Shown here: one piece after another, positions 4,401-61,231 of the stretch
Layout of the letters: the number at the start of each line of letters is the position of its first letter
Position numbering within the stretch: the stretch's first letter is position 1
Assembly (NCBI GenBank): GCA_043228905.1
Contig: JBHGNT010000016.1
Span: 186,001 to 250,000, forward strand
Reading direction: 5' to 3'
Source: Azolla caroliniana
Lineage: Eukaryota; Plantae; Polypodiophyta
DNA: 64,000 bases
The notes under the pieces: model-generated
What the model saw: only the letters and a program-made list of their open reading frames with translations
The model's database searches: none
What the model was told of the DNA's origin: nothing
Program-made: the position numbers and the translations under genes

Positions 4401-7400
4401 CCTGAGTTTCAAAATCTTGATTTTTTAATTCCATATCAGAGCTAGCGTTGTTAGCTTCGATTCGCATGTTTGAACACAGAAATCTGATATCACACGAGCT
4501 AGGTATGAACATTTTAATTTACTAACGCGCTCTTCTTCACTACCTCCTCAAATTTGCTAATTTCTTCATGTCTCTCGGCCTGAGTTTCAAAATCTTGATT
4601 TTTTAATTCCATAACATAGCTAGCGTTGTTAGCTTCAATTCGCATGTTTGAACACAGAAATCCGAAATCACACGAGCTAGGTATGAACATTTTAATTTAC
4701 TAACGCGCTCTTCTCCACTACGTCCTCAAATTTGCTAATTTCTTCATGTCTCTCCACCTAAGTTTAAAAATCTTGATTTTTTAATTCCATAACATAGCTA
4801 GCATTGTTAGCTTCGATTTGCATGTTTGAACACAGAAATCCGGTATCACACGAGCCTTGTATGAACATTTCATTTACTAACGCGCTCTTCTCCACTACCT
4901 CCTCAAATTTGCTAATTTCTTAATGTCTCTCGACCTGAGTTTCAAAATTTTGATTTTTTAATTCCATAACATAGCTAGCGCTGTTAGCTTCGATTCGCAT
5001 GTTTGAACACAGAAATCCGGTATCACACGAGCCTGGTATGAACATTTTAATTTACTAACGCGCTCTTCTCCACTACGTCCTCAAATTTGCTAATTTCTTC
5101 ATGTCTCTCGACCTGAGTTTAAAAATCTTGATTTTTTAATTCCATAACATAGCTAGCGCTGTTAGCTTCGATTCACATGTTTGAACACAAAAATCCGATA
5201 TCACACGAGCCACGGATGAACATTTTAATTTACCTACTAGCGCTTGTCAACTCCTTCCTCAAATTTGCTAATTTCTTCATGTCTCTCGACCTGAGTTTCA
5301 AAATCTTGATTTTTTAATTCCATAACATAGCTAGCGTTGTTTGCTTCGATTCGCATGTTTGAACACAGAAATCCGGTATCACACAAGCCTGGTATGAACA
5401 TTTCATTTACTAACGCGCTCTTCTCCACTACCTCCTCAAATTTGCTAATTTCTTCATGTCTCTCGACCTGAGTTTCAAAATCTTGATTTTTTAATTCCAT
5501 AACATAGCTAGCGTTGTTAGCTTCGATTCGCATGTTTGAACACAGAAATCCGGTATCACACAAGCCTGGTATGAACATTTCATTTACTAACGCGCTCTTC
5601 TCCACTACCTCCTCAGATTTGCTAATTTCTTCATGTCTCTCGACCTGAGTTTCAAAATTTTGATTTTTTAATTCCATAACATAGCTAGCGCTGTTAGCTT
5701 CGATTCACATGTTTGAACACAAAAATCCGATATCACACGAGCCACGGATGAACATTTTAATTTACCTACTAGCGCTTGTCAACTCCTTCCTCAAATTTGC
5801 TAATTTCTTCATGTCTCTCGACCTGAGTTTCAAAATCTTGATTTTTGAATTCCATAACATAGCTAGCGTTGTTTGCTTCGATTCGCATGTTTGAACTCAG
5901 AAATCCGGTATCACACAAGCCTGGTATGAACATTTCATTTACTAACGCGCTCTTCTCCACTACCTCCTCAAATTTGCTAATTTCTTCATGTCTCTCGACC
6001 TGAGTTTCAAAATTTTGATTTTTTAATTCCATAACATAGCTAGCGCTGTTAGCTTCGATTCACATGTTTAAACACAAAAATCCGATATCACACGAGCCAC
6101 GGATGAACATTTTAATTTACCTACTAGCGCTTGTCAACTCCTTCCTCAAATTTGCTAATTTCTTCATGTCTCTTGACCTGAGTTTCAAAATCTTGATTTT
6201 TTAATTCCATAACATAGCTAGCGTTGTTAGCTTCGATTCGCATGTTTGAACATAGAATTCCGGTATCACACGAGCCTGGTATGAACATTTTAATTTACTA
6301 ACGCGCTCTTCTCCACTACGTCCTCAAATTTGCTAATTTCTTCATGTCTCTCGACCTGAGTTTCAAAATCTTGATTTTTTAATTCCATAACATAGCTAGC
6401 GTTGTTAGCTTCGATTCGCATGTTTGAATACAAAAATCCGATATCCCACGAGCCACGGATGAACATTTTAATTTACCTACTAGCGGTTGTCAACTCCTTC
6501 CTGAAATTTGCTAATTTCTTCATGTCTCTCGACCTGAGTTTCAAAATCTTGATTTTTTAATTCCATATCAGAGCTAGTGTTGTTAGCTTCGATTCGCATG
6601 TTTGAACACAGAAATCTGATATCACACGAGCTAGGTATGAACATTTTAATTTACTAACGCGCTCTTCTTCACTACCTCCTCAAATTTGCTAATTTCTTCA
6701 TGTCTCTCGGCCTGAGTTTCAAAATCTTGATTTTTTAATTCCATAACATAGCTAGCGTTGTTAGCTTTGATTCGCATGTTTGAACACAAAAATCCGATAT
6801 CACACGAGCTAGGTATGAACATTTTAATTTTCTAACGCGCTCTTCTCCAGTACCTCCACAAATTTGCTAATTTCTTCATGTCTCTCGACCTGAGTTTCAA
6901 AATCTTGATTTTTTAATTCCATAACATAGCTAGCGCTGTTAGCTTCGATTCACATGTTTGAACACAAAAATCCGATATCACACGAGCCACGGATGAACAT
7001 TTTAATTTACCTACTAGCGCTTGTCAACTCCCTCCTCAAATTTGCTAATTTCTACATGTCTCTCGACCTGAGTTTCAAAATCTTGATTTTTTAATTCCAT
7101 AACATAGCTAGCGCTGTTAGCTTCGATTCGCATGTTTGAACACAGAAATCCGGTATCATACGAGCCACGGATGAACATTTTAATTTAGGTACTAGCGCTT
7201 GTCAACTCCCTCCTCAAATTTGCTAATTTCTTCATGTCTCTCGACCTGAGTTTTAAAATCTTGATTTTTTAATTCCATAACATAGCTAGCGCTGTTAGCT
7301 TCGATTCACATGTTTGAACACAAAAATCCGGTATCACACGAGCCACGGATGAACATTTCAATTTACCTACTAGCGCTTGTCAACTCCTTCCTCAAATTTG

Positions 7401-7539
7401 CTAATTTCTTCATGTCTCTCCACCTAAGTTTAAAAATCTTGATTTTTTAATTCCATAACATAGCTAGCATTGTTAGCTTCGATTTGCATGTTTGAACACA
7501 GAAATCCGGTATCACACGAGCCTGGTATGAACATTTTAA

Positions 7540-7560
7540 TTTAGGGTTTAGGGTTTAGGG
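7540..7560 (+). repeat. Second copy of the interstitial (TTTAGGG)3
   Basis: Same insertion at the same monomer position, 6070 bp after the first copy. Confidence 0.95.
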
Positions 7561-8978
7561 TTTAATTTACTAACGCGCTCTTCTCCACTACCTCCTCAAA
7601 TTTGCTAATTTCTTCATGTCTCTCGACCTGAGTTTCAAAATCTTGATTTTTTAATTCCATAACATAGCTAGCGCTGTTAGCTTCGATTCACATGTTTGAA
7701 CACAAAAATCCGATATCACACGAGCCACGGATGAACATTTTAATTTACCTACTAGCGCTTGTCAACTCCTTCCTCAAATTTGCTAATTTCTTCATGTCTC
7801 TCGACCTGAGTTTAAAAATCTTGATTTTTTAATTCCATAACATAGCTAGCGTTGTTAGCTTCGATTCGCATGTTTGAACACAGAAATCCGGTATCACACG
7901 AGCCTGGTATGAACATTTTAATTTACTAACGCGCTCTTCTCCACTACGTCCTCAAATTTGCTAATTTCTTCATGTCTCTCGACCTGAGTTTCAAAATCTT
8001 GATTTTTTAATTCCATAACATAGCTAGCGCTGTTAGCTTCGATTCACATGTTTGAACACAAAAATCCGATATCACACGAGCCACGGATGAACATTTTAAT
8101 TTACCTACTAGCGCTTGTCAACTCCTTCCTCAAATTTGCTAATTTCTTCATGTCGCTCGACCTGAGTTTCAAAATCTTGATTTTTGAATTCCATAACATA
8201 GCTAGCGTTGTTAGCTTCGATTCGCATATTTGAATACAAAAATCCGATATCCCACGAGCCACGGATGAACATTTTAATTTACCTACTAGCGCTTGTCAAC
8301 TCCCTCCTCAAATTTGCTAATTTCTTCATGTCTCTTGACCTGAGTTTCAAAATCTTGATTAATTAATTCTATAACATAGCTAGCATTGTTAGCTTCAATT
8401 CGCATGTTTGAACACAGAAATACGATATCACACGAGCTAGGTATGAACATTTTAATTTACTAACGTGCTCTTCTCCACTACCTCCTCAAATTTGCTAATT
8501 TCTTCATGTCTCTCAACCTAATTTTAAAAATCTTGATTTTTTAATTCCATAACATAGCTAGCGTTGTTAGCTTCAATTCGCATGTTTGAACACAGAAATC
8601 CGAAATCACACGAGCTAGGTATGAACATTTTAATTTACTAACGCGCTCTTCTCCACTACGTCCTCAAATTTGCTAATTTCTTCATGTCTCTCCACCTAAG
8701 TTTAAAAATCTTGATTTTTTAATTCCATAACATAGCTAGCATTGTTAGCTTCGATTTGCATGTTTGAACACAGAAATCCGGTATCACACGAGCCTTGTAT
8801 GAACATTTCATTTACTAACGCGCTCTTCTCCACTACCTCCTCAAATTTGCTAATTTCTTCATGTCTCTCGACCTGAGTTTCAAAATTTTGATTTTTTAAT
8901 TCCATAACATAGCTAGCGCTGTTAGCTTCGATTCACATGTTTGAACACAAAAATCCGATATCACACGAGCCACGGATG

Positions 8979-9590
8979 TGTTGGGATTAAGGTCCCTTCG
9001 ATGGGATGGTCGGATGTCGGAGATGAATGCCGACGAGCCCGGTTTTGGTTTCGGAACCGGATGATGAAGACCCCGGCTTCGGAGCCGGATGACGAATGTA
9101 CCCAGGGAGAGATCCGGATGCAGGGACATATCCGTGAATATGTTTGCTAAGAACCCCCTGAGGCTATAGTTGTAAATAGCCCCAAAGTCATATATGTATA
9201 AATATGACTTAGGGCAATTGGTTTTATGGTTGTTGATCATTTTTCTGTTTTTCCACTCTAGAGGAGTGAAGAGAGAGCAGCCGCGAGAGAGAGAGAGGGA
9301 TAGAGCGTGAGAGAGGAAGAGGTCGACGCCTCTGTGTATTTCCGCCGCCTGTGGCGAGGACAGCGAGCTCAAGGTCGTCGCCTTGCAGCTCGCCATTGTA
9401 TACTTCTCTGTATAGTGTTGGTTTGGAGTCTTGTCCTCCCGTGGTTTTTCCCGTCTAGGGTTTTCCACGTTAATCCCTGTGTGTTCGCGTTTTTGTTTCT
9501 CTTTGTGGTTCCTATTTTCTGCTGCATCGATTCGCGCTTACTCGGTTGTGGCCGAGGGAAGAAGGTTAATCGTGTGGTTGATTCCTTACA
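8979..9590 (+). repeat. Copia 5' LTR (612 bp)
   Basis: TGTTGGGATT...TTCCTTACA; matches 13705-14316; TATA-like TATAAATA at ~9197-9204; GA-rich tract at ~9260-9320. Confidence 0.97.
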
Positions 9591-9593
9591 AAC

Positions 9594-9605
9594 TGGTATC
9601 AGAGC
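9594..9605 (+). promoter_or_regulatory. Primer-binding site (tRNA-iMet)
   Basis: TGGTATCAGAGC, 3 nt after the LTR end; this is the canonical plant iMet PBS. Confidence 0.95.
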
Positions 9606-9620
9606 GAACTGCTGCAGAAA

Positions 9621-12600
9621 ATGGAAGGCGGCGGCAGCGGGCAGCCGGCGATGATGGTGCTGAATGCGCAGAATTACGCCGACTGGAAGATCAAGATGGA
9701 GGATCTTCTGATTGTTCGGGACCTGTATGAACCGATTGACAGGTCGGAAATACCGAAGGGGGTACTTGAGTCAGAGTGGAAGCTCCTGAACCGGAAAGCC
9801 GTAGCGACGATCCGACAATATGTCGATGTAAGCGTCCTACAACATGTGGGGAATGACACCAACGCATATGAGATGTGGAAGAAGCTGTCGGGCCTCTACG
9901 AGAGGAAGAATGCGTTGAACCGGACCTCCCTGATGAGGAAAATAGTGAATCTCAAGTACCGGGACGGCGAGAGTATGGTGGAACACGTAAGCACGTTCAT
10001 GGGATTTGTGAATCAGCTTGCGGCGATCAAGTTCCCGTTGGAGGATGCAATGCAAGCCATCATCCTGATGTGTACATTGCCGGAAAGCTGGGAGAACTTG
10101 GTGGTGACTCTCAGCACCTCCTGCACCGAAGATAACTTGTCCTTACAAACGGTAAAGACAAGTATTTTGAACGAAGAAGCGCGTCGGAGAGACAAAGAAC
10201 CGGCCTCCGACTCAAAGGCGCTGCTTACCGAATCGGATCGGGGAAGACAATGGAACCGGAGTCCGCAAAGACGGGAGAAGTCGGGGACCCGGTCGCAGTC
10301 AAGAGGAAGGCCCACATGCTTCCACTGTGGGAAACCGGGGCACTTCCGAAAGAATTGTCGGCATTACCGAAAAGACAACGGAGCCGACGACACCGATTCG
10401 AAGAAGTCACCGGAGAGAAACGGTGCATACCGGGGAGCCACGGACCGGAGAGGTTCGGATCGGCGAGGGCAGGACCGGAAAGGAACAACGGCACTCGCGG
10501 CAAGTGAGGAAGAAATCATGCTCATCACCGAAGAAAGTGAAGTAAACATTGCCGGCGATGAGACGACCTGGGTGGTCGATTCCGGAGCATCGTTCCACCT
10601 GACCCCGGAGAGAAGATACTTCTCATCCTACACAGCCGGTGAGCATGGCTGTGTTCGAATGGGAAATGAAGGTACGTGCCGGATTGTCGGCATCGGAGAC
10701 GTGTGGTTGACAACCCCGACCGGATGCAAAATGCTGCTGAAGGATGTCCGACACGTTCCGGAGGTTCGATTGAACCTGATTTCGGCCGGGAGGCTAGACG
10801 ATGAAGGCTACACAGGTAGCATCCGGAACGGCGTAATGAAGTTCAGCAAGGGGAGCCTGATAGTGGCCCGGGCCCGGAAAGACAACACACTGTACCTGAT
10901 GAATGCCCGGTTATGTCCGGAAGAGCTGAATGTGGCAGCCGACACTGCCGGTGAGCTGTGGCACAAAAGACTGTGCCACATGAGTGAGAAGGGGATGAAG
11001 AGGCTTGCAGAAGACAACCTTATTCCAGTGAAGCAAGTGCACCTGGAGAAGTGCACCGATTGCCTGGCCGGTAAACAGAACCGAACCTCCTTCCATTCAA
11101 GGCCACCGACGAGACGTAGCGCACCATTGGAGTTGGTGCACACTGATGTGTGTCAGGTAGAAACGAAGTCACATGGCGGAGCCCAGTACTTCGTAACATT
11201 CGTTGATGATCACAGTCGGAAGCTGTGGACGGCACCGTTGAAGACAAAGGACCAAGTGTTGTGCGTCTTCAAAGAACTCCACGCGAGAGTGGAAAGGGAA
11301 TCCGGCAAGAAGCTGAAAGCGATACGAGCGGATAACGGAGGGGAATACCGGGGGCAGTTCCAGGAGTACTGTCGCTCGAAGGGAATCCGGCTCGAGTTTA
11401 CTGTGCCGAAGACGCCGGAACTGAACGGACTGGCCGAGAGGATGAACCGGACCATAATGGAGAGGGTCCGGAGTATGCTGGCGCATGCGAAATTACCCAA
11501 GGGGTTTTGGGCTGAGACAATGTCGACGGCGACATATGTGATAAATAGATCACCCTCAGTACCTTTGGACGGAGACACGCCGCAGAAAGTGTGGACCGGT
11601 AAGGAAGTGTCCTACCGGCACCTGAAGGTGTTCGGGTGTCTCGCATACGTGCATGTGGCAAAGGACCGGAGAGGAAAGCTAGATCCAAAGACCCGGCCAT
11701 GCATATTCCTCGGTTACGGCGACGATGAGTTCGGCTACCGAGTATGGGACCCGGTCGACAAGAAGATATTCAGGAGTCGAGATATCATCTTCATGGAGGA
11801 CAAGACACTCGCCGACTGGGAGTCGGAGAAGAAGATGAAGAGCTCCAAGTCGACCGGTGAGGATCAACTCTACAAGGAGCAGTCCCGACCGGCAAGAGAC
11901 CGGTTAGCACTCGAGGATCCGGCCGAAGACGGTGAAGAAACAGAACCGGCCGAAGAAGATGAAAATGATACCGGGACCGGCCCCGATCCCGAAATGGATT
12001 TGGATGAAGAAGAATCGGAAGAACCGGTTACCGAAGCTCCGGAACGGAGATACCCTCTAAGAGAGAGAAGGCCCCCCCGGAGATTCCCGGAACCAGAGCA
12101 CGTGTTGCTAACCGACGAGGGGGAGCCGGAGAGCTTTGAAGAAGCAAAGCATGACACCCAGAGCCGCAGGTGGTTGAGTGCCATGCAGGACGAGATGGAT
12201 TCCCTGCATGAGAACCACACATATGAACTTGTGGAGTTGCCGAAAGGAAAGCGGGCACTTCGAAACAAGTGGGTGTTCAAGCTGAAACCGGGAGATGCCG
12301 GAAACCCCCCGAGATACAAAGCCAGGATCGTGGTGAAGGGGTTCCAGCAGAAGAAGGGTGTGGACTTCGACGAGATATTTGCCCCGGTAGTGAAGATGAC
12401 CTCCATCCGAACGGTGCTGAGCATAGCGGCAAGCATGGACCTCGAGGTAGAACAGATGGACGTGAAGACGGCATTCCTTCACGGTGACCTCGATGAAGAG
12501 ATCTACATGCAGCAACCGGAAGGATTCGAGAAGAAAGGGAAGGAGCACCTGGTATGCCGGTTGAAGAAGAGCCTTTACGGACTAAAGCAGGCTCCCCGGC

Positions 12601-13694
12601 AATGGTACCGGAAGTTCGACTCCTTCATGACCGACGAAGGGTACCTCAAAACGCAGTCCGACCACTGCGTGTTTGTGAAGAAGTTCGAAGGAGGAGACTC
12701 TCTGATACTCCTCCTATACGTGGACGACATGTTGATCGTCGGACGGGACCAGGTCAAGATACGGATGCTGAAGAAGGCTCTTCACCGAACCTTCTCAATG
12801 AAGGACTTGGGTCCGGCGAGGCAAATACTAGGGATGCACATCATCCGGGACCGGAGCAAGAAGCAGTTGTGGCTGTCACAGGAGAAGTACGTGACGAAGG
12901 TGCTTCACCGGTTTAACATGTCGGAAGCAAGACCGGTCGGATCGACCCTCCCGGCAAACTGCAAGCTGTCCAGCAAGCAAAGTCCCAAGACAAAGGCTGA
13001 AAAGGAGGATATGATGAAAGTACCGTATGCCTCAGCCGTCGGAAGCTTGATGTACGCCATGGTGTGTACGAGACCGGACATCGGATATGCAGTCGGAGTG
13101 GTGAGCCGGTACATGAGCAATCCCGGCAAAGAGCATTGGAATGCGGCCAAGTGGATACTCCGATACCTGAAGGGCACGGCAAACGTGTGCCTCCGATTCG
13201 GCTCCGGTAAGCCCGAACTCGACGGCTTCACCGATTCGGATATGTCGGCTGATGCAGATACCAGCCGGTCCACATCAGGGTATGTGATGACGTATGCAGG
13301 GGGAGCCGTTTCGTGGCGGTCGAGGCTGCAGAAGACGGTTGCGTTGTCAACCACGGAGGCGGAGTACATGGCAGCTGTTGAAGCCGGTAAGGAAATAATA
13401 TGGATGAAGGACTTCATTAGAGAGCTCGGTATCCAGCAGGAGGAGTACCGACTCTACTGTGACAGTCAGAGTGCCATCCACCTTGCGAAGAACGCGGCCT
13501 ACCATTCCCGGACAAAACACATCCAGCGTAGATACCACTGGATCCGGGAAAGGATAGAAGACAAGGAGTTCGTGCTGACAAAGATCCACACGGACGAGAA
13601 CGGGTCGGATATGCTGACCAAGGTGCTCACACCCGACAAGCTGGAAGCATGCCGGAAGAGGATCGGATTGGAGAGACATCCCATGCCGAAGTGA
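9621..13694 (+). CDS. gag-pol: Copia Gag-Pol polyprotein, 1357 aa
   Basis: CCHC knuckle CFHCGKPGHFRKNC; protease WVVDSGAS; GAG-pre-integrase WHKRLCH; integrase HTD...DNGGEY...E; RT LLYVDDML; RNase H TDSD...EAEY...DSQSAI. Confidence 0.97.
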   Translation: MEGGGSGQPAMMVLNAQNYADWKIKMEDLLIVRDLYEPIDRSEIPKGVLESEWKLLNRKAVATIRQYVDVSVLQHVGNDTNAYEMWKKLSGLYERKNALNRTSLMRKIVNLKYRDGESMVEHVSTFMGFVNQLAAIKFPLEDAMQAIILMCTLPESWENLVVTLSTSCTEDNLSLQTVKTSILNEEARRRDKEPASDSKALLTESDRGRQWNRSPQRREKSGTRSQSRGRPTCFHCGKPGHFRKNCRHYRKDNGADDTDSKKSPERNGAYRGATDRRGSDRRGQDRKGTTALAASEEEIMLITEESEVNIAGDETTWVVDSGASFHLTPERRYFSSYTAGEHGCVRMGNEGTCRIVGIGDVWLTTPTGCKMLLKDVRHVPEVRLNLISAGRLDDEGYTGSIRNGVMKFSKGSLIVARARKDNTLYLMNARLCPEELNVAADTAGELWHKRLCHMSEKGMKRLAEDNLIPVKQVHLEKCTDCLAGKQNRTSFHSRPPTRRSAPLELVHTDVCQVETKSHGGAQYFVTFVDDHSRKLWTAPLKTKDQVLCVFKELHARVERESGKKLKAIRADNGGEYRGQFQEYCRSKGIRLEFTVPKTPELNGLAERMNRTIMERVRSMLAHAKLPKGFWAETMSTATYVINRSPSVPLDGDTPQKVWTGKEVSYRHLKVFGCLAYVHVAKDRRGKLDPKTRPCIFLGYGDDEFGYRVWDPVDKKIFRSRDIIFMEDKTLADWESEKKMKSSKSTGEDQLYKEQSRPARDRLALEDPAEDGEETEPAEEDENDTGTGPDPEMDLDEEESEEPVTEAPERRYPLRERRPPRRFPEPEHVLLTDEGEPESFEEAKHDTQSRRWLSAMQDEMDSLHENHTYELVELPKGKRALRNKWVFKLKPGDAGNPPRYKARIVVKGFQQKKGVDFDEIFAPVVKMTSIRTVLSIAASMDLEVEQMDVKTAFLHGDLDEEIYMQQPEGFEKKGKEHLVCRLKKSLYGLKQAPRQWYRKFDSFMTDEGYLKTQSDHCVFVKKFEGGDSLILLLYVDDMLIVGRDQVKIRMLKKALHRTFSMKDLGPARQILGMHIIRDRSKKQLWLSQEKYVTKVLHRFNMSEARPVGSTLPANCKLSSKQSPKTKAEKEDMMKVPYASAVGSLMYAMVCTRPDIGYAVGVVSRYMSNPGKEHWNAAKWILRYLKGTANVCLRFGSGKPELDGFTDSDMSADADTSRSTSGYVMTYAGGAVSWRSRLQKTVALSTTEAEYMAAVEAGKEIIWMKDFIRELGIQQEEYRLYCDSQSAIHLAKNAAYHSRTKHIQRRYHWIRERIEDKEFVLTKIHTDENGSDMLTKVLTPDKLEACRKRIGLERHPMPK

Positions 13695-13702
13695 AGGGGG
13701 AG
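13688..13702 (+). promoter_or_regulatory. Copia polypurine tract, overlapping the ORF stop codon
   Basis: GAAGTGAAGGGGGAG immediately before the 3' LTR; it contains the TGA at 13692-13694. Confidence 0.9.
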
Positions 13703-13704
13703 TT

Positions 13705-14316
13705 TGTTGGGATTAAGGTCCCTTCGATGGGATGGTCGGATGTCGGAGATGAATGCCGACGAGCCCGGTTTCGGTTTCGGAACCGGATGATGAAGACCCC
13801 GGCTTCGGAGCCGGATGACGAATGTACCCAGGGAGAGATCCGGATGCAGGGACATATCCGTGAATATGTTTGCTAAGAACCCCCTGAGGCTATAGTTGTA
13901 AATAGCCCCAAAGTCATATATGTATAAATATGACTTAGGGCAATTGGTTTTATGGTTGTTGATCATTTTTCTGTTTTTCCACTCTAGAGGAGTGAAGAGA
14001 GAGCAGCCGCGAGAGAGAGAGAGGGATAGAGCGTGAGAGAGGAAGAGGTCGACGCCTCTGTGTATTTCCGCCGCCTGTGGCGAGGACAGCGAGCTCAAGG
14101 TCGTCGCCTTGCAGCTCGCCATTGTATACTTCTCTGTATAGTGTTGGTTTGGAGTCTTGTCCTCCCGTGGTTTTTCCCGTCTAGGGTTTTCCACGTTAAT
14201 CCCTGTGTGTTCGCGTTTTTGTTTCTCTTTGTGGTTCCTATTTTCTGCTGCATCGATTCGCGCTTACTCGGTTGTGGCCGAGGGAAGAAGGTTAATCGTG
14301 TGGTTGATTCCTTACA
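13705..14316 (+). repeat. Copia 3' LTR (612 bp)
   Basis: Identical to the 5' LTR by eye except C13772 versus T9046. Confidence 0.97.
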
Positions 14317-24139: not shown

Positions 24140-24261
24140 TGTCATAACTAGACTCGAACCCATAACCTTTTGTTACACGGGTCGAGACTTTACCATTAGG
24201 TTATGAGTTGTAATTTGAAGGATATTATTTTCATTTAGGTTTTATTAGGAAATTGATGTAT

Positions 24262-24311
24262 ATTCCAGATTTCTCTGGAACATTCTAGAAACTTCAGGAG
24301 TATTCCTGAAG
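24262..24311 (+). promoter_or_regulatory. Heat-shock element (alternating nGAAn/nTTCn array) in U3
   Basis: TTC-ca-GAT-tt-CTC-tg-GAA-ca-TTC-ta-GAA-ac-TTC-ag-GAG-ta-TTC-ct-GAA: 10 in-phase pentamers, 7 perfect, 4 of them consecutive. Confidence 0.8.
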
Positions 24312-24315
24312 ACAC

Positions 24316-24322
24316 TATAAAA
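24316..24322 (+). promoter_or_regulatory. TATA box of the chromovirus LTR
   Basis: TATAAAA in the context CACTATAAAAGG. Confidence 0.8.
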
Positions 24323-24429
24323 GGAGGCGCAAGGCATTAGTTCGAACCAAATCGGTTCAACGCCAGTCTTAAGCCTTCTAACTACTGTTGTATATCTTCC
24401 GTCATATAATACATATATCTTTCGCACCA

Positions 24430-24433
<4 letters not shown>

Positions 24434-24465
<32 letters not shown>
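24434..24465 (+). repeat. (TC)n microsatellite in the LTR R/U5 region
   Basis: About 16 TC units. Confidence 0.9.
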
Positions 24466-24469
<4 letters not shown>

Positions 24470-24604
24470 ACTCATTCCTTCTCTCAAAGTTCGACACCTC
24501 TCATAGTACTAATCCTTCTCTGTCTTAGTACTATTCCCCAACAATAGTACTAATCCTTCTTTTAGTACTAATTCCTTCTCTGCCTTAATAGAGTTCCTGA
24601 CAGT

Positions 24605-24616
24605 TTGAACCGATTT
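24605..24616 (+). promoter_or_regulatory. Self-priming PBS (complementary to the predicted 5' end of the element's own transcript)
   Basis: TTGAACCGATTT is the exact reverse complement of AAATCGGTTCAA (24349-24360), which starts 33 nt after the TATA start. No TGG-type tRNA PBS is present. Confidence 0.8.
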
Positions 24617-24690
24617 CCCCTACTAGTCTCCCTCTTCCTTCTGTCTCTCTCCTTTCCTACTAGTCTCTTATTTCCCTTTTCCTTCATCCC

Positions 24691-25860
24691 ATGGCCACCG
24701 TTAGCGCTGAAGAGTATCAATCCGTTTTCTCGGAATTTCAATGCTTGAAAGAGAAGTTTCATGCTTTGGAACAAGAAAATCAACGCTTGTTGGGGGATCT
24801 TCAGCAAATTTCCTTAGAAAAGCAGCAAACGCAACAACAGCATGGGGAACTTGCGTTACGCGTGCAACAACTCGAAGCAACCATCGTAGCAATGCAACAA
24901 CAAGGGCACGGAGCACAAGGGATTCATAAAGAACCCAAGATTGGCCTTCCCACGAAGTTCGATGGAACGCGATCGCAGTTTAGAGGGTTTCTTAACCAGG
25001 TACGGTTAGTTATTCAAATGCATCCGTCCCAATATCCCACCGATGCATCACGAGTGGGTTTAGTAGGCACGTTGTTAAATGGCTCAGCATTAGCATGGTT
25101 CGCTCCGCTACTAGAAAAGGAATCTCCAGTACTAAATAATTTTGAAGAATTCATAAGTGAGTTTAAAGCATGTTTTGGAGATACTGACAGCATAAGGACT
25201 GCAATCAACAAAATCCGGCGATTACGCCAAGGTGACCGTCCAGCCTCCGCATATGCTGCAGATTTCCGCCTACTCGCCGCCGATATCCCCTGGGATGATC
25301 AAGCATTGATGGAGCAGTTCCGCTATGGTCTACGCAACGATGTCAAGGATTTACTCTTGACTTTCCCTGAAGAGCCAAAATCATTAACAGAAGCAATCAG
25401 TCGAGCGGTCAGATGTGACAACCGCCTCTTCGAGCGACGTTCGGAACGACAATTTCAGATGCCGAGGGCAAGATCCGAGCCTACCTATGCCTCAGTGGTA
25501 GCGAAACCTTTTCAAAGGGAGTCACATAATGCGCCTCCAGTAAGTACTCCAACTCCAATGGAAATTGACACTACACGTCGTCGTGGGCCGCTATCGGAGG
25601 AGGAAAAGCAACGACGCCGAACAAACCGATTATGCCTTTATTGCGGTGGACCAGGGCATATCGCGATAAACTGTCCCCATAGACCAAGAAGGCAGGTAAA
25701 CCAAGTCATTGTTAGTTCTGACTATACTAAACCCGAGTCTATTTCAGTAGGAATCTCTGATAATCCTCATAGTCATAATAGTCCTAATAGTACTAATAGT
25801 CCGAATCTCGCAAACAAATTTGATGTCCTTAGCCAATTAGAAGAAGAGTTAAACGACTAA
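24691..25860 (+). CDS. gag: Chromovirus Gag, 389 aa
   Basis: N-terminal coiled coil; PTKFDG...FLNQV...GSALAW capsid region (sushi/PEG10/RTL1-like); PMEID motif; CCHC knuckle CLYCGGPGHIAINC. Confidence 0.93.
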   Translation: MATVSAEEYQSVFSEFQCLKEKFHALEQENQRLLGDLQQISLEKQQTQQQHGELALRVQQLEATIVAMQQQGHGAQGIHKEPKIGLPTKFDGTRSQFRGFLNQVRLVIQMHPSQYPTDASRVGLVGTLLNGSALAWFAPLLEKESPVLNNFEEFISEFKACFGDTDSIRTAINKIRRLRQGDRPASAYAADFRLLAADIPWDDQALMEQFRYGLRNDVKDLLLTFPEEPKSLTEAISRAVRCDNRLFERRSERQFQMPRARSEPTYASVVAKPFQRESHNAPPVSTPTPMEIDTTRRRGPLSEEEKQRRRTNRLCLYCGGPGHIAINCPHRPRRQVNQVIVSSDYTKPESISVGISDNPHSHNSPNSTNSPNLANKFDVLSQLEEELND

Positions 25861-25925
25861 GTCCAGCCAAAATAGGAGCCGTTTGGTTGGACAGCCCTAG
25901 ATCTGTGCAGCCCATTAGTGGTTCC
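25848..25925 (+). promoter_or_regulatory. Putative -1 ribosomal frameshift signal
   Basis: G_TTA_AAC in gag frame (25848-25854); 6-nt spacer; 11-bp stem 25861-25871/25882-25892; loop GGAGCC can pair with GGTTCC (25920-25925). Confidence 0.7.
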
Positions 25926-28900
25926 ATTCCCTCTAAGCAAGTTAGTGATGTGTTCGTAGTCCAAGTAGCAGTTAGTACTAAAAGTACCCCTCCAGTACAT
26001 ACCTTAGCCCTTCTAGATTCCGGAGCTAATTCTTGCTTCATGGATAGGAATTTTGCCCGAGCTCATCAGATATCTCTCAGAAAGCTCCCATGTCCAGCCT
26101 CAGTAGTAGTCATTGATGGTCGTCCCATTGCTTCTGGTAATATCATAGAAGAGTCGGAACCCGTTAATATTGTCCTAGATAACTTAACATGTGTAGTATC
26201 ATTTAATATTATTAGTATTCCAGAACATCCCATAGTTTTAGGATTACCATGGTTCGAGTTACATGACCCAGACATAGATTGGAGGACAAGGGAAATCCGG
26301 TTGCGACAAACCCAAGGATCTACCCAGAAGGTTGCAACCATTTCGCTACGTCAGTTGCGTGAGGAAGGGCGCAAGGAGGAAATGTTTCTCTTTGCAATAT
26401 CAGTACAACCCTCCAGCACCACCAAAGAGGAGTCCACCGTTCAACTTCCCGAGAAGTATCGTCAGTATGCTGATGTGTTCGATAAAGTACAAGCCAACAC
26501 ACTTCCTCATCATCGGCCGTACGACTGCGCCATCGACTTACAACCGGGAAAAGAGCCGCCATGGGGGCCGATCTACAATTTGTCACCAACCGAGCTAGAA
26601 GTCCTTCGAGCCTATATAGAGGAGAATTTGGAGAACGGTTTCATTCGGCATTCGAAATCTCCAGCCGGCGCACCCATTTTCTTCGTCAAGAAAAAAGATG
26701 GCTCGCTTCGACTCGTTGTAGATTACCGTGGCTTGAATAAGGTCACAGTAAGAAATAGGTATGCTCTTCCCCTTATCTCAAGTCTTTTAGAACGGATCAA
26801 CGGTGCCAGGTTCTTCACGAAGATCGACTTACGAGGAGCCTATAACCTCGTACGGATCCGACCAGGAGATGAATGGAAGACCGCGTTTCGCACCAGATAT
26901 GGGCACTTCGAGTATACGGTCATGCCGTTCGGACTCACTAATGCGCCGGCAGTCTTCCAGCACATGGCGAATGATATATTTCGAGATCTCTTGGATGATT
27001 TTTTGATCATCTATTTGGATGATCTACTGGTTTATTCAAAGACCCAAGAAGAACATGATTCTCATGTACTATTAGTACTAAAACGACTTCGAGAACATGG
27101 TCTGTATGCAAAGTTAGAGAAATGTAGTTTCGGGTGCAACCAAGTGGAGTTTCTCGGCTATGTCATCTCCTCAGAAGGCATATCTATGGACCCAGCCAAG
27201 GTCAAAACGGTGATAGAATGGCACACTCCGCGTTCGGTGCGGGATGTGCAATGCTTCCTAGGCTTTGCAAATTTCTACCGGAAGTTCATACAAAATTACT
27301 CAAAAATTGTGCTGCCTCTCACACAGCTCACCAGGAAGGGACAATCATTCATTTGGTCTAAAGAGACGGACATGGCTTTCGAGAGTCTTAAGAAGGCGTT
27401 TACATCAGCTCCAATTTTAGGTCATGTGGATCCGGAAAAACCATTCATTATCGAAGCTGATGCATCGGATTTCGCATTGGGGAGCATTCTGTCACAACAG
27501 GGTAACGACGAGAAGCTACATCCTGTGGCTTTCCACTCCCGTAAGTTTGACGCCGCCGAAATCAACTACGAAATTCATGATAAAGAGCTATTAGCAATAG
27601 TTGATTCTTTTATGCAATGGAGGCATTTCCTGGAGGGATCTCCTCATCAGGTCACTGTATTCAGTGACCACAAGAACCTTGCCTACTTTCAAGATGCTCG
27701 TGTACTGAATCGACGTCAAGCTCGGTGGGCCCACTTCCTCACACGCTTCGACTTCAAAATTACATATCGTCCGGGGAAGCACCAAGGGAAGGCAGATGCA
27801 TTATCACGGCGTTCGTATCTAACACCACGTCCCGGTGAGCCAGCTTTCGATAACCAGAAGCAAGTAATCTTGGGTCCAGCACGACTGCAAGCAGCACAGA
27901 TCTTTGACATGCCCGTGGATTCCGACATTACCAATACTATACGTGAGGACTTGAAGACTGACGCTTTCGCCCAAGCTATACTAGCACAAATTGACCCCTC
28001 TCGAGCGTCATGTTCACAATCACAATCACCAGGTACGGATTATCGGCAATTCAAATACTGTGATGGATTACTCTTCTTTAAAGAACTTTTGTATGTTCCT
28101 AATGGTTCTTGCCGCCTTCGAGTAGTACAAAACTGCCATGACACATATACAGCAGGACATTTTGGTAGTACTAAAACATTAGATTTAGTACAACGATCAT
28201 TCTGGTGGCCCCGTATGCGACAATTTGTCGAAGATTTTGTTCGGACTTGCGATACATGCTGCAGAGCGAAAATGCCAAGACATCATCCATATGGTTTATT
28301 AGAACCATTACCAATTCCAAGCAAGCCATGGCAATCCATTGCTCTTGACTTCATTACAGATCTTCCAGTCTCTAAGGGATTCAGTGCGATTCTCACAGTG
28401 GTGGATCGATATACGAAGATGGCTCATTTCTTACCATGTACTAAAGAAATATCTAGTGAAGACACCGCCGAAATTGTCATGCGGGAAGTATGTCGGCATC
28501 ATGGACTCCCTGATAATATCATCAGCGATCGTGGACCCCAGTTTGTGTCAAAATTCTGGAAGCACCTTTTTAAAATGCTGAAGGTCACTTGTAACCTCTC
28601 CTCCGGCTACCACCCACAAACCGACGGTCAAGCCGAACGAACAAATCAAACACTGGAGCAGTATCTGCGGTGCTTTCTCAACTATCATCAGAATGACTGG
28701 GCAGATATTCTTCAGTTCGCCGAATTTGCCTATAATAACGCTATCCACGCATCGACTAAAGTCACGCCATTCTACGCTTATACGGGATATCATCCCCGGT
28801 GGTGTGTCCTTGAAACCCCAGAAGTGTCCACAAATCCTTGCGCGGAGGATCGTTTGGAGCGGTTACGCAAGATACAAGCGGATTTATCTACTCAACTCCA

Positions 28901-29444
28901 GCAAGCTCAACAATCACACAAGGACTACGCAGATCGTCATCGACTTCCATCCAGTTTTAACATTGGAGATCGGGTGTGGCTGCTACGACGACACATCAAG
29001 ACTACTCGCCCATGTGAGAAGTTGGATTATCGACGATTAGGTCCTTTCCGTATTATCGGGAAGATTAATGATGTCGCTTTTCGTCTCGAGCTACCTCCGC
29101 AACTTCGGATACACCCGGTGTTTCATAGTTCTCTCCTCGAACCCTATCACGAGAGCACTATCCCAGGACGTACTATACAACCTCCACCTCCTATCGAGCT
29201 CGAAGATGGACCTGAGTATGAGGTCGCTGCCATCCTCGATTCCAAGATTGTTCGCAACAAGCTCTACTATCTAGTCGATTGGCTAGGATATAGTCCCAGC
29301 GAGCGTACTTGGGAACCGATCGAGAATGTGACCAATGCTCGTGCTCTTCTAGAAGACTTCCATCGACGATATCCCGAGAAACCGAGTCCTCAATCCAAAA
29401 CGACTCGTGAAACTCGTCGTTTTAAAGGGGGGATAGTGTCATAA
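25887..29444 (+). CDS. pol: Chromovirus Pol (PR-RT-RH-INT-chromodomain), probably translated as a Gag-Pol fusion; frame open from 25833
   Basis: Protease LLDSGA; RT YLDD; RNase H ADASD...ELLA; integrase HHCC (H..GHFG...CDTC), DDE core and GPF motif; chromodomain EYEVAAILDSK...YLVDWLGY...TWEP. The stop codon lies inside the 3' LTR. Confidence 0.96.
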   Translation: MDSPRSVQPISGSIPSKQVSDVFVVQVAVSTKSTPPVHTLALLDSGANSCFMDRNFARAHQISLRKLPCPASVVVIDGRPIASGNIIEESEPVNIVLDNLTCVVSFNIISIPEHPIVLGLPWFELHDPDIDWRTREIRLRQTQGSTQKVATISLRQLREEGRKEEMFLFAISVQPSSTTKEESTVQLPEKYRQYADVFDKVQANTLPHHRPYDCAIDLQPGKEPPWGPIYNLSPTELEVLRAYIEENLENGFIRHSKSPAGAPIFFVKKKDGSLRLVVDYRGLNKVTVRNRYALPLISSLLERINGARFFTKIDLRGAYNLVRIRPGDEWKTAFRTRYGHFEYTVMPFGLTNAPAVFQHMANDIFRDLLDDFLIIYLDDLLVYSKTQEEHDSHVLLVLKRLREHGLYAKLEKCSFGCNQVEFLGYVISSEGISMDPAKVKTVIEWHTPRSVRDVQCFLGFANFYRKFIQNYSKIVLPLTQLTRKGQSFIWSKETDMAFESLKKAFTSAPILGHVDPEKPFIIEADASDFALGSILSQQGNDEKLHPVAFHSRKFDAAEINYEIHDKELLAIVDSFMQWRHFLEGSPHQVTVFSDHKNLAYFQDARVLNRRQARWAHFLTRFDFKITYRPGKHQGKADALSRRSYLTPRPGEPAFDNQKQVILGPARLQAAQIFDMPVDSDITNTIREDLKTDAFAQAILAQIDPSRASCSQSQSPGTDYRQFKYCDGLLFFKELLYVPNGSCRLRVVQNCHDTYTAGHFGSTKTLDLVQRSFWWPRMRQFVEDFVRTCDTCCRAKMPRHHPYGLLEPLPIPSKPWQSIALDFITDLPVSKGFSAILTVVDRYTKMAHFLPCTKEISSEDTAEIVMREVCRHHGLPDNIISDRGPQFVSKFWKHLFKMLKVTCNLSSGYHPQTDGQAERTNQTLEQYLRCFLNYHQNDWADILQFAEFAYNNAIHASTKVTPFYAYTGYHPRWCVLETPEVSTNPCAEDRLERLRKIQADLSTQLQQAQQSHKDYADRHRLPSSFNIGDRVWLLRRHIKTTRPCEKLDYRRLGPFRIIGKINDVAFRLELPPQLRIHPVFHSSLLEPYHESTIPGRTIQPPPPIELEDGPEYEVAAILDSKIVRNKLYYLVDWLGYSPSERTWEPIENVTNARALLEDFHRRYPEKPSPQSKTTRETRRFKGGIVS
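29424..29436 (+). promoter_or_regulatory. Chromovirus polypurine tract
   Basis: AAAGGGGGGATAG directly before the TGTCA of the 3' LTR. Confidence 0.9.
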
Positions 29445-29697
29445 CTAGACTCGAACCCATAACCTTTTGTTACACGGGTCGAGACTTTACCATTAGGTTA
29501 TGAGTTGTAATTTGAAGGATATTATTTTCATTTAGGTTTTATTAGGAAATTGATGTATATTCCAGATTTCTCTGGAACATTCTAGAAACTTCAGGAGTAT
29601 TCCTGAAGACACTATAAAAGGAGGCGCAAGGCATTAGTTCGAACCAAATCGGTTCAACGCCAGTCTTAAGCCTTCTAACTACTGTTGTATATCTTCC
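29437..29697 (+). repeat. Truncated chromovirus 3' LTR (261 bp)
   Basis: Identical by eye to 24140-24400; about 202 bp of R/U5 are missing. Confidence 0.93.
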
Positions 29698-29757
29698 ACT
29701 ACCTCCTAAAATTTGCTAATTTCCACTACTGTTGTATATCTTCCACTGTTGTATATC
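29698..29757. other. Templated-filler repair junction
   Basis: Patchwork of a satellite piece (29695-29723) and two LTR-end copies (29725-29744 and 29745-29757), joined through short overlaps. Confidence 0.85.
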
Positions 29758-32700
29758 ACACGAGCTAGGTATGAACATTTTAATTTACTAACGCGCTCTT
29801 CTCCACTACCTCCTAAAATTTGCTAATTTCTTCATTGTCTCTCGACCTGAGTTTCAAAATCTTGATTTTTCAATTCCATATCAGAGCTAGCGTTTTTAGC
29901 TTCGATTCGCATGTTTGAACACAAAAATCCAATATCACACGAGCCTTGGATGAATATTTTAATTTACTTACGCGCTCTTCTCCACTACGTCCTCAAATTT
30001 GCTAATTTCTTCATGTCTCTCGACTTGAGTTTCAAAATCTTGATTTTTCAATTCCATATCGGAGCTACCGTTGTTAGCTTCGATTCGCAAGTTTGAACAC
30101 AAAAATCCGATATCACACGAGCGTGGTATGAACCTTTTCATTTACTAACGCGCTCTTCTCCACTACCTCCTCAAATTTGCTAATTTCTTCATGTCTCTCG
30201 ACCTGAGTTTCAAAATCTTGATTTTTTAATTCCATATCAGAGCTAGCGTTTTTAGCTTCGATTCGCATGTTTAAACACAGAAATCCGATATCACACGAGC
30301 TAGGTATGAACATTTTAATTTACTAATGCGCTCTTCTCCACTACCTCCTCAAATTTGCTAATTTCTTCATTGTCTCTCGACCTGAGTTTCAAAATATTGA
30401 TTTTTCAATTCCATATCAGAGCTAGCGTTGTTATCTTCGATTCGCATGTTTGAACACAAAAATCCGGTATCACACGAGCCACGTATGAACATTTTAATTT
30501 ACCTACTAGCTCTTGTCAACTACCACCTGAAATTTGCTAATTTCTTCATATCTCTCGACCTGAGTTTGAAAATCTTGATTTTTTAATTCCATATCAGAGC
30601 TAGCGTTTTTAGCTTCGATTCGCATGTTTGAACACAAAAATCCGATATCACACGAGCCTTGGATGAATATTTTAATTTATAACGCGCTCTTCTCCACTAC
30701 GTCCTCAAATTTGCTAATTTCTTCATGTCTCTCGACTTGAGTTTCAAAATCTTGATTTTTCAATTCCATATCAGAGCTAGCGTTGTTAGCTTCGATTCGC
30801 AAGTTTGAACACAAAAATCCGATATCACACGAGCGTGGTATGAACCTTTTCATTTACTAACGCGCTCTTCTCTACTACCTCCTCAAATTTGCTAATTTCT
30901 TCATGTCTCTCGACCTGAGTTTCAAAATCTTGATTTTTTAATTCCATATCAGAGCTAGCGTTTTTAGCTTCGATTCGCATGTTTAAACACAAAAATCCGA
31001 TATCACACGAGCTAGGTATGAACATTTTAATTTACTAACGCGCTCTTCTCCACTACCTCCTAAAATTTGCTAATTTCTTCATTGTCTCTCGATCTGAGTT
31101 TCAAAATCGTGATTTTTCAATTCCATATCAGAGCTAGCATTGTTAGCTTCGATTCGCATGTTTGAACACAAAAATCCGATATCACACGAGCCTTGGATGA
31201 ATATTTTAATTTACTAACGCGCTCTTCTCCACTACGTCCTCAAATTTGCTAATTTCTTCATGTCTCTCGACCTGAGTTTCAAAATCTTGATTTCTCAGTT
31301 CCATATCAGAGCTACCGTTGTTAGCTTCGATTTGCAAGTTTGAACACAAAATTCCGATATCACACGAGCGTGGTATGAACCTTTTCATTTACTAACGCGC
31401 TCTTCTCCACTACCTCCTCAAATTTGCTAATTTCTTCATGTCTCTCGACCTGAGTTTCGAAATCTTGATTTTTCAATTCCATATCAGAGCTAGCGTTGTT
31501 AGCTTCGATTCGCATGTCTGAACACAAAAATCCGATATCACACGAGCCACGGATGAATATTTTAATTTACCTACTAGCGCTTGTCAACTCCCTCCTCAAA
31601 TTTGCTAATTTCTTCATGTCTCTCGACCTGAGTTTCAAAATCTTGATTTTTTAATTCCATATCAGAGCTAGCGTTGTTAGCTTCGATTCGCATTTTGAAC
31701 ACAGAAATCCGATATCACACGAGCTAGGTATGAATATTTTAATTTACTAACGCGCTCTTCTCCACTACGTCCTCAAATTTGCCTATTTCTTCATGTCTCT
31801 CGACTTGAGTTTCAAAATCTTGATTTTTCAATTCCATATCAGAGCTACCGTTGTTAGCTTCGATTCGCAAGTTTGAACACAAAAATCCGATATCACACGA
31901 GCGTGGTATGAACCTTTTCATTTACTAACGCGCTCTTCTCCACTACCTCGTAAAATTTGCTAATTTCTTCATGTCTCTCGACCTGAGTTTCAAAATCTTG
32001 ATTTTTTAATTCCATATCAGAGCTAGCATTTTTAGCTTCGATTCGCATGTTTAAACACAGAAATCCGATATCACACGAACTAGGTATGAACATTTTAATT
32101 TACTAACGCGCTCTTCTCCACTACCTCCTAAAATTTGCTAATTTCTTCATTGTCTCTCGACCTGAGTTTCAAAATCTTGATTTTTTAATTCCATATCAGA
32201 GCTAGCGTTGTTAGCTTCGATTCGCATGTTTGAACAGAGAAATCCGATATCACACGAGCTAGGTATGAATATTTTAATTTACTAACGCGCTCTTCTCCAC
32301 TACGTCCTCAAATTTGCCTATTTCTTCATGTCTCTCGACTTGAGTTTCAAAATCTTGATTTTTCAATTCCATATCAGAGCTACCGTTGTTAGCTTCGATT
32401 CGCAAGTTTGAACACAAAAATCCAATATCACACGAGCGTGGTATGAACCTTTTCATTTACTAACGCGCTCTTCTCCACTACCTCCTAAAATTTGCTAATT
32501 TCTTCATGTCTCTCGACCTGAGTTTCAAAATCTTGATTTTTTAATTCCATATCAGAGCTAGCGTTTTTAGCTTCGATTCGCATGTTTAAACACAGAAATC
32601 CGATATCACACGAGCTAGGTATGAACATTTTAATTTACTAACGCGCTCTTCTCCACTACCTCCTAAAATTTGCTAATTTCTTCATTGTCTCTCGACCTGA

Positions 32701-60760: not shown

Positions 60761-61180
60761 TGTTACCGGCCGGCAAGGAGTCCAAAATACGGAGTGAAGG
60801 AATTAATTAGATATGGTTGTAAATGAGCATAGTGTGGACGGACGGACTAGAAACGGTATGCCGTTCCAGATCCGGACGGATCCCGAATAGGTGCGAGAGG
60901 CACCGTTTTGTACTACGGGCCGGAAACCTATTTAAAGGCCCGGACCCCATTGTAATGACAGCGGATAATTAATAGAGCTTATGATGTTTATACTTCTGTC
61001 TTGATTTCCGTTCTGTAATCACTGTTCTATCTTACGCGTGTAATTAACCAAAGCAATCTAATCGTGTAACCTACGTAAGTCGGTGTAATCGTTGAATCTT
61101 AATCCTATGCCGTAATCACCCTTTGGTGAAGTGTCTCCGTGACACCTTGTGTTAGGCCTTGTCCGGCTAAGAGAATAACA
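60761..61180 (+). repeat. 5' LTR of the third element (~420 bp; end could be 61182)
   Basis: TGTTA...TAACA terminal inverted repeat; TATTTAAA at 60929-60936; PBS follows. Confidence 0.78.
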
Positions 61181-61186
61181 CAGTTT

Positions 61187-61198
61187 TGGCGACCACGA
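61187..61198 (+). promoter_or_regulatory. Primer-binding site, probably tRNA-Arg
   Basis: TGGCGACCACGA, complementary to a ...GTGGTCG-CCA tRNA-Arg(UCG)-type 3' end. Confidence 0.72.
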
Positions 61199-61231
61199 TT
61201 CCTGCTTTCTCGCAGCGAACGACGGTAATGG

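What the first reader, a model, noticed from the sequence alone, without database searches (positions are those of the whole stretch)
24349..24616. tRNA-independent self-priming reverse transcription signal
Seen: 2 nt after the LTR end lies TTGAACCGATTT, a perfect 12-nt complement of AAATCGGTTCAA at 24349-24360, where transcription should start (33 nt from the TATA start). No TGG tRNA PBS is present. Known: S. pombe Tf1 primes with the first 11 nt of its own RNA after RNase H cleavage, and this is proposed for the Tf1/sushi group. Inference: this plant element uses the fungal-type mechanism with a ~245-nt loop.
Basis: partly seen in the sequence, partly recalled or inferred. Interest (0 to 1): 0.75.

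Follow-up and report, generated by a model that had tools for sequence, protein, structure and literature searches.

The report
Self-priming chromovirus retrotransposon in a fern
A young jumping gene in a fern genome has no tRNA docking site, and the 12 bases after its left repeat instead pair perfectly with the predicted start of its own RNA, a match that related families keep with different letters, so it likely primes its own copying as yeast Tf1 does, a mechanism already predicted for its relatives in mosses.

Summary
Observation confirmed. The 12-nt match (24349-24360 with 24605-24616) begins 2 nt after the true LTR end and 33 nt after the TATA start; 0 of 5000 shuffles reach it. The element is a young Ty3/gypsy chromovirus of fungal/vertebrate (Tf1/sushi) type in a 178-bp satellite array; the host's LEAFY genes group with leptosporangiate ferns. 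Five different primer/PBS words occur in related families of this genome, each matching its own LTR at the same spacing, so self-priming is likely. No RNA data tested the start site or the cleavage. The mechanism is not new: Neumann 2019 predicts it for 83% of 1500 moss/clubmoss Tcn1 elements, and this scan noted it before in two moss genomes. Additions not found in my limited searches: a fern host; a hypervariable scar starting at the first base after the PBS (45 alleles in 81 copies), likely where plus-strand DNA runs off the primer's 5' end; a U3 arm complementary to the primer in most lineages; a tRNA-like B box at the LTR's outer edge. Against: Tf1's three-duplex fold is incomplete here, and a second self-primed family shows only a weak scar.

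The parts
24140..24602 (+). 5' LTR, 463 nt, TGTCA...TGACA
   Evidence: end fixed by 3' LTRs of 8 other copies
24140..24206 (-). degenerate tRNA-like segment pointing out of the element: B box 24150-24160, A-box-like 24193-24203
   Evidence: ARAGORN and Rfam negative for this copy; a relative, L141, gives a sub-threshold Rfam tRNA match
24316..24322 (+). TATA box
   Evidence: sequence; 33 nt before the primer in 111 of 112 copies
24340..24348 (+). U3 arm complementary to the primer (hairpin across the predicted U3/R border; weak in this family)
24349..24360 (+). predicted self-primer, the predicted first 12 nt of the RNA
   Evidence: intact in 79 of 82 copies
24362..24368 (+). short inner duplex partner of the LTR end (2+3 pairs with 24599-24604)
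   Evidence: minimum-energy fold
24603..24604 (+). 2-nt spacer between LTR end and PBS
   Evidence: same offset in 12 of 12 intact distant elements
24605..24616 (+). primer-binding site complementary to the element's own R start
   Evidence: intact in 81 of 82 copies
24617..24620 (+). hypervariable junction directly 3' of the PBS (this copy's allele)
24691..25860 (+). gag, 389 aa (Retrotrans_gag, Ty3_capsid, CCHC)
25833..29444 (+). pol, 1203 aa stop to stop, overlapping the gag end in another frame: PR-RT-RH-IN-SH3-chromodomain
29424..29436 (+). polypurine tract
   Evidence: sequence
29437..29697 (+). truncated 3' LTR, 261 of 261 nt identical to the 5' LTR, holding a second copy of the primer word

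Best explanation
This is a young fern chromovirus with no tRNA primer site whose PBS matches bases 24349-24360 of its own LTR, and it likely primes reverse transcription with its own RNA: transcription is predicted to start at 24349, the first 12 nt would pair with the PBS across a 244-nt loop, and the element's RT/RNase H would cut after them to free a 3' end. Shown: the match, its spacing, its conservation and its covariation across families. Inferred from Tf1: the start site, the cut, and extension into minus-strand strong-stop DNA. Further inferred: the primer stays on the minus strand and is copied into the plus strand, so each daughter's PBS can be rewritten from the primer (which keeps the two matched), and RT runs off the primer's capped 5' end, adding C (cap), G (start one base earlier) or extra T (slippage on the AAA start); mis-annealing of that end at the second strand transfer leaves the substitutions, insertions and nested deletions that begin at 24617. 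The U3 arm would hide the second copy of the primer word at the RNA's 3' end so that it does not compete for the PBS (speculative).
For: Chance: 0 of 5000 shuffles. Conservation: PBS intact in 81 of 82 and R word in 79 of 82 copies. Single-site covariation over 112 copies: R C with PBS G 81, R T with PBS A 27, R C with PBS A 3, R T with PBS G 0, 1 unreadable; copy L056/L121 carries the R change in both LTRs, identical outside a CT repeat, plus the matching PBS change. Distant families (RT 52-83% identical): 12 of 15 elements with a called LTR pair, out of 20 fetched, have an 11-12-nt perfect match at offset 2 and 31-32 nt from a TATA; five different words in all, each matching its own LTR in full (11-12 nt) and LTRs with another word by only 3-7 nt. 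Predicted primer:PBS pairing probability 0.91-0.96 in 8 of 8 folds. Scar: the 3 bases after the PBS are the most diverse of 627 positions tested (3.88 bits, 21 types; median 0); 45 alleles in 81 copies; 10 alleles among 14 copies otherwise identical in LTR and leader apart from the CT repeat; a nearby T/C run shows 4 alleles, 69 of 81 identical, no length change. The added letters are mixed (first base T 41, C 29, G 8, A 2 of 80), where a tRNA template would give fixed ones. Tf1 cDNA keeps single-stranded PBS at its 3' end and Tf1 RT adds non-templated bases (PMC11042837 passages). Tree: window outside the seed-plant plus Closterium clade (100/99), among fungal and vertebrate rows.
Against: No RNA evidence for the start site or the cut. 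The single-site change is a CpG-type transition on both sides and arose few times, so the 112 copies are not independent events; 3 copies break it. Tf1's three-duplex fold is incomplete: the inner duplex is about 8 bp in families B, D and E but only 2+3 bp here and in family C, and no outer duplex appears in the window's fold. The scar is not general: self-primed family B keeps one junction in 89 of 100 listed copies, though all 11 variants lie in the first 3 bases (hand count). It is also not exclusive: the tRNA-primed Copia of this window shows 13 alleles in 100 listed copies, the commonest 63 (hand count). The U3 arm is weak in the window (z -2.2; 4 of 48 other U3 windows pair as well) and absent in family C. 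The host's tRNA set was not searched in full.
Confidence: 0.88

Rival explanations
1. A host tRNA fragment ending in the T loop primes instead; the GGTTCAA part of the primer word resembles a tRNA T-loop motif (recalled).
For: The motif resemblance; half-tRNA priming exists in plant Copia lineages (PMC6317226).
Against: A T-arm pattern holding the 12-mer (1 mismatch allowed) gave 12 matches against 9 for the reversed control; none of the 5 loci fetched is a tRNA by ARAGORN. The PBS words of families B, C, D and E have no such motif yet match their own LTRs. It leaves the LTR match unexplained.
Confidence: 0.03
2. The R/PBS helix is real but structural (packaging, dimerisation or translation control) and priming is by something else.
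For: Covariation shows pairing, not priming; the supporting duplexes of Tf1 are weak here.
Against: Fixed 2-nt offset from the LTR end and fixed TATA distance in all lineages; no other primer site; variation starts exactly where the predicted primer's 5' end pairs.
Confidence: 0.06
3. Self-priming is right but the junction variation has another cause: slippage in the T/C-rich leader, or generic errors of plus-strand transfer that any primer would give.
For: The leader is low in complexity; the tRNA-primed Copia also varies there; family B hardly varies.
Against: A control run in the same leader is stable; G and A alleles are not slippage products (base after the T run: C 48, G 30, A 3 of 81); otherwise identical copies differ there.
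Confidence: 0.3

Closest known systems
Plant Tcn1 chromoviruses (REXdb; Neumann et al. 2019, PMC6317226, passages and supplementary file 5 read)
   Same: No tRNA PBS, LTR-complementary site within 0-5 nt of the LTR end (their rule: at least 10 nt; 83% of 1500 elements), overlapping gag and pol frames (their commonest layout, 60%), chromodomain with aromatic-cage residues, affinity to fungal and vertebrate elements.
   Different: Reported there for mosses and clubmosses only; a PCR survey of 26 ferns and horsetails did not list ferns as hosts (PMC2864245 passages). This host is a fern. At about 5.76 kb if complete, it is near the short end of their range (5466-9444). No Tcn1 reference sequence was in my tree.
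Tf1/Tf2 of Schizosaccharomyces pombe, Tj1, Tosmo1-3 (Tf1/sushi group; passages of 10.1101/2022.12.06.519325, PMC5341516, PMC11042837)
   Same: Self-primer at the RNA start pairing with a PBS after the LTR; chromodomain integrase; 11-12-nt primer (Tf1's 11 nt is recalled).
   Different: Tf1 needs a three-duplex 'pretzel'; here only the central duplex is strong. Tf1 is proven by experiment, this one is not. Tf1 has a single ORF.
TAR/Houba Copia lineage (PMC6317226)
   Same: Predicted self-priming in plants (89% of 203).
   Different: Ty1/copia, unrelated domain order.
Helenus TRIMs (Kojima 2024, PMC10886601 passages), for the tRNA-like LTR segment only
   Same: tRNA-derived A and B boxes inside an LTR.
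   Different: Helenus is non-autonomous; here the segment is antisense, at the outer edge of the LTR of a coding element that has a TATA promoter.

Membership tests
Ty3/gypsy chromovirus | PR-RT-RH-IN order with C-terminal chromodomain | tested here: met
   Pfam, (Chromo 2e-14)
Tcn1 clade (REXdb) | RT/RH/INT phylogeny within Tcn1 reference elements | tested here: inconclusive
   No named Tcn1 sequence among hits. The tree excludes it from the seed-plant plus Closterium clade and leaves it in an unresolved group with fungal and vertebrate rows; 45 of 121 rows were used, chosen by me.
Tcn1 clade (REXdb) | no tRNA PBS; at least 10-nt LTR complement 0-5 nt after the 5' LTR | tested here: met
   12 nt at offset 2; rule
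Tcn1 clade (REXdb) | group I chromodomain with aromatic cage | tested here: met
   Y, W and Y present by eye in the domain printed, against the cage described in PMC3350952; no formal alignment
Tcn1 clade (REXdb) | gag and pol in overlapping frames; 5-bp TSD | tested here: met
   28-nt overlap; 5-bp TSDs visible in copies L121, L122, L125 and L129; none in the truncated window copy
Tcn1 clade (REXdb) | host range mosses and clubmosses (descriptive, not defining) | tested here: not met
   host LEAFY groups with Anemia and Ceratopteris, 96/88
Tf1-type self-priming | primer begins at the transcription start | not testable with these tools
   no raw RNA reads offered; indirect support from TATA spacing and the scar
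Tf1-type self-priming | three-duplex pretzel | tested here: not met
   central duplex yes, inner duplex 2+3 bp, outer duplex not seen in the window's fold; inner duplex about 8 bp in three related families
Tf1-type self-priming | cleavage by the element's RT/RNase H and extension from the cut | not testable with these tools
   needs biochemistry
tRNA-primed plant chromoviruses (Tekay, Reina, Galadriel, CRM) | TGG-starting PBS complementary to a tRNA 3' end | tested here: not met

The most novel reading that the evidence does not exclude
Ferns host an active radiation of fungal-type self-priming chromoviruses that work without the full Tf1 pretzel, and their genomes record the mechanism: every replication copies the RNA's own capped 5' end into the PBS, so primer and PBS evolve together by direct templating and each copy carries a scar that maps the transcription start and acts as a per-insertion barcode. 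A U3 anti-primer hairpin masks the competing 3' copy of the primer, and the same LTRs carry an outward-facing tRNA-derived Pol III element.
Probability: 0.35. Interest if true: 0.6.

Novelty: new member of a known kind. Interest (0 to 1): 0.38.

Why it matters
In the papers I saw, self-priming in plants rests on a complementarity rule applied to mosses and clubmosses. This genome adds covariation across five primer words, a case of apparent primer-to-PBS inheritance, and hundreds of near-identical intact copies in a vascular plant, so the mechanism can be tested directly outside fission yeast. If the scar is what it seems, self-priming and the start site of a family could be read from DNA copies alone. 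A fern host would also widen the range that bears on the proposed fungus-to-plant transfer of this clade.

Tried and rejected
Expression and start site: no RNA holder listed; four contig runs laid cannot show starts, and the one with a change in the R word did not cover the PBS, so no use was made of them; one read-laying run left unused. RT search of the own genome returned only this family (150 of 150 identical), so distant families were reached with protease queries. Of 20 distant elements fetched, 5 gave no LTR pair, L136 was a false pair, L128 had an interrupted 3' LTR and L132 was degraded. The LTR's tRNA-like segment as primer: rejected by eye, at most 7 pairs with the PBS and none in families B and D. 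tRNA calls on that segment: Rfam and ARAGORN negative for the window and Rfam negative for 4 of 4 sister loci. Named Tcn1 references: none found. The Fisher p-value is not used, as copies are related. The papers of Atwood-Moore 2006 and Lin and Levin 1997 were not held; only their titles were seen in a reference list. Additional files 1 and 3 of PMC6317226 (per-element table, sequences) were too large to read and bear on Tcn1 membership and on whether junction variation was visible there. No structure or complex prediction was run; none was needed.

Full report
Setting. The window is a 178-bp satellite array broken by three inserts at 8979-14316, 24141-29752 and 60761-64000. The middle one holds the finding: a Ty3/gypsy element with a 463-nt 5' LTR (24140-24602), gag (24691-25860), an overlapping pol with PR-RT-RH-IN-SH3-chromodomain (25833-29444), a polypurine tract and a 3' LTR cut off after 261 identical bases. 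The family is young and large: 267 exact matches to the LTR-end/PBS junction, and 150 of 150 scored RT hits identical to the query.

Observation. The LTR end is confirmed by 8 of 8 3' LTRs of other copies. None of 5000 dinucleotide shuffles of the LTR gives 12 nt.

Host and kin. The genome has two LEAFY genes. Their last exon is 91-92% identical to the five best named proteins, all from ferns and a horsetail, against 86% for a lycophyte, 84% for liverworts, 75-82% for mosses and 71-76% for angiosperms, and groups with Anemia and Ceratopteris at 96/88 (105 columns, one gene). The host is therefore most likely a leptosporangiate fern. The element's RT-RH is 50-60% identical to named fungal and vertebrate elements and 44-50% to seed-plant and Closterium ones; the latter form a clade (100/99) that excludes it (45 rows chosen from the 120 hits). 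The only hit with an organism name among the 120 listed gag hits is from a mycorrhizal fungus. This fits the Tf1/sushi group, but no Tcn1 reference was available, so clade membership is open.

Covariation. Of 82 copies fetched (22, 60 of the first 100 places), the PBS is intact in 81 and the R word in 79; the copies were picked by a pattern that includes the first 7 PBS bases, so only the last 5 were free to vary. The one PBS change (L056) comes with the matching R change, and both LTRs of that element carry it, so it was inherited through replication rather than acquired after insertion. A search for that PBS variant found 658 places, mostly sister families; of the first 30, 23 have a perfect match of 12-13 nt to their own LTR. 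Over all 112 copies the two sites agree in 108, disagree in 3, and 1 was unreadable. Both changes are CpG-type and arose few times, so this alone is modest evidence. Distant families are stronger: 12 of the 15 elements with a called LTR pair (20 fetched) show 11-12-nt matches at offset 2 and 31-32 nt from a TATA, with the words AAGGTGAACAA (families B and E), AATTCGAATCAA (C) and AAGGAGATCAA (D). Each PBS matches LTRs with its own word in full and LTRs with another word by 3-7 nt. All words start with AA and end in CAA. The helix has probability 0.91-0.96 in 8 of 8 folds.

A scar at the PBS edge. The bases right after the PBS are the most variable of 627 positions in LTR and leader: 21 different 3-mers in 80 copies, 45 junction alleles in 81 copies, and 10 alleles among 14 copies that are otherwise identical apart from the CT repeat. 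The alleles include extra T (run of 3 in 40, 4 in 27, 5 in 12, 6 in 2), then C, G or A, and nested deletions of the leader that start at this edge. A T/C run further on is stable, which argues against sequencing error. Tf1 cDNA is reported to keep single-stranded PBS at its 3' end and to gain non-templated bases (PMC11042837, passages), and a title in a reference list states that the Tf1 self-primer is not removed (text not held). My inference is that plus-strand strong-stop DNA runs off the 5' end of the primer, which would place the RNA start at 24349 give or take a base. Controls temper this. The tRNA-Met-type Copia in this window has 13 alleles in 100 listed copies with one at 63 (hand count), so some variation there is generic. 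Self-primed family B has one allele in 89 of 100 listed copies, with all 11 variants in the first three bases and four of them G at the first base (hand count). A reading that fits both: a cap-templated C is silent where C already follows, and an AAA start slips where an AA start does not. This is untested.

Differences from Tf1. Tf1 needs three duplexes (10.1101/2022.12.06.519325, passages). Here the inner one is about 8 bp in families B, D and E but 2+3 bp in the window and family C, and no outer one appears in the window's fold. Instead, U3 just upstream of the predicted start holds an arm complementary to the primer: z -6.3 (B), -6.2 (D), -4.3 (E), -1.6 to -4.1 (three sisters), -2.2 (window), +0.8 (C) (window chosen after seeing the motif). 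In B, D and E the arm pairs best with its own primer word. U3 is transcribed only at the RNA's 3' end, where the arm could mask the second copy of the primer word; this is speculation.

tRNA rival. A T-arm pattern holding the 12-mer matched 12 places against 9 for the control; 0 of 5 fetched are tRNAs. The host's tRNA set was not searched in full, but five unrelated words each matching their own LTR make this rival weak.

What is known. Neumann et al. 2019 (PMC6317226; passages and supplementary file 5) predict self-priming for 83% of 1500 Tcn1 elements and say the clade occurred only in mosses and clubmosses. Novikova et al. 2010 (PMC2864245; passages) found no primer site in SM-Tcn1 and name mosses and Selaginella as hosts after screening 26 ferns and horsetails. 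This scan has noted the same layout in two moss genomes. I found no description of the scar or the U3 arm in searches (listings only, open-access library), nor of Tcn1 in ferns in the listings of searches (20 of 27 and 40 of 251 listed; the second did not require the term) and passages of four papers; fern genome supplements were not seen and may hold such calls. One search found no paper; searches concerned the tRNA-like segment and LEAFY. PMC5341516 and PMC3601003 were seen as passages.

Verdict. A real feature, likely self-priming (0.88), a new member of a kind already predicted in plants. The fern host, the covariation series and the scar make it a good system to test, not a new mechanism. 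Interest 0.38.

Noticed in passing
window 24140-24206, minus strand; L141:2056-2127: Degenerate tRNA-like segment at the outer edge of the LTR, pointing out of the element. A B box lies 5-33 nt from the LTR start in 4 of 5 lineages (window and sisters, B, C, E; not D), in 28 of 31 LTRs scanned and in neither of 2 control LTRs; the pattern was adjusted after seeing the sequences. L141 matches Rfam tRNA over the whole model at 22 bits, E 0.028, below the 29-bit cut-off. Possibly an LTR-borne Pol III or TFIIIC site in a coding element.
   Followed up: partly
window 29698-29760: The 3' LTR breaks off into satellite through a junction with two short re-copied LTR pieces mixed with satellite pieces, as after repair with templated insertions; no TSD in this copy.
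   Followed up: no
window 8979-14316: Young Ty1/copia element (612-nt LTRs 99.8% identical, single 1370-aa frame) with a TGG-starting PBS of the tRNA-Met type (type recalled); at least 127 copies; used as control.
   Followed up: partly
window 60761-64000: Start of a third LTR element with a TGG-starting PBS about 5 nt after an LTR of about 420 nt; not classified. It may belong to the PPT-less lineage noted elsewhere in this genome.
   Followed up: no
window 1-64000: 178-bp satellite array, about 280 monomer-spaced matches, likely centromeric; not identified with any known satellite.
   Followed up: no
L006, L022: L006 shows an LTR pair in tandem; L022 has LTR plus PBS followed directly by unrelated sequence, as expected if a cDNA end with its PBS tail were inserted or the internal part lost.
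   Followed up: no
window 24361-24368 and the same place in L122, L129, L135, L141: The bases after the primer are conserved across all lineages (C-purine-C-pyrimidine-AGT), a candidate signal around the predicted cut.
   Followed up: no
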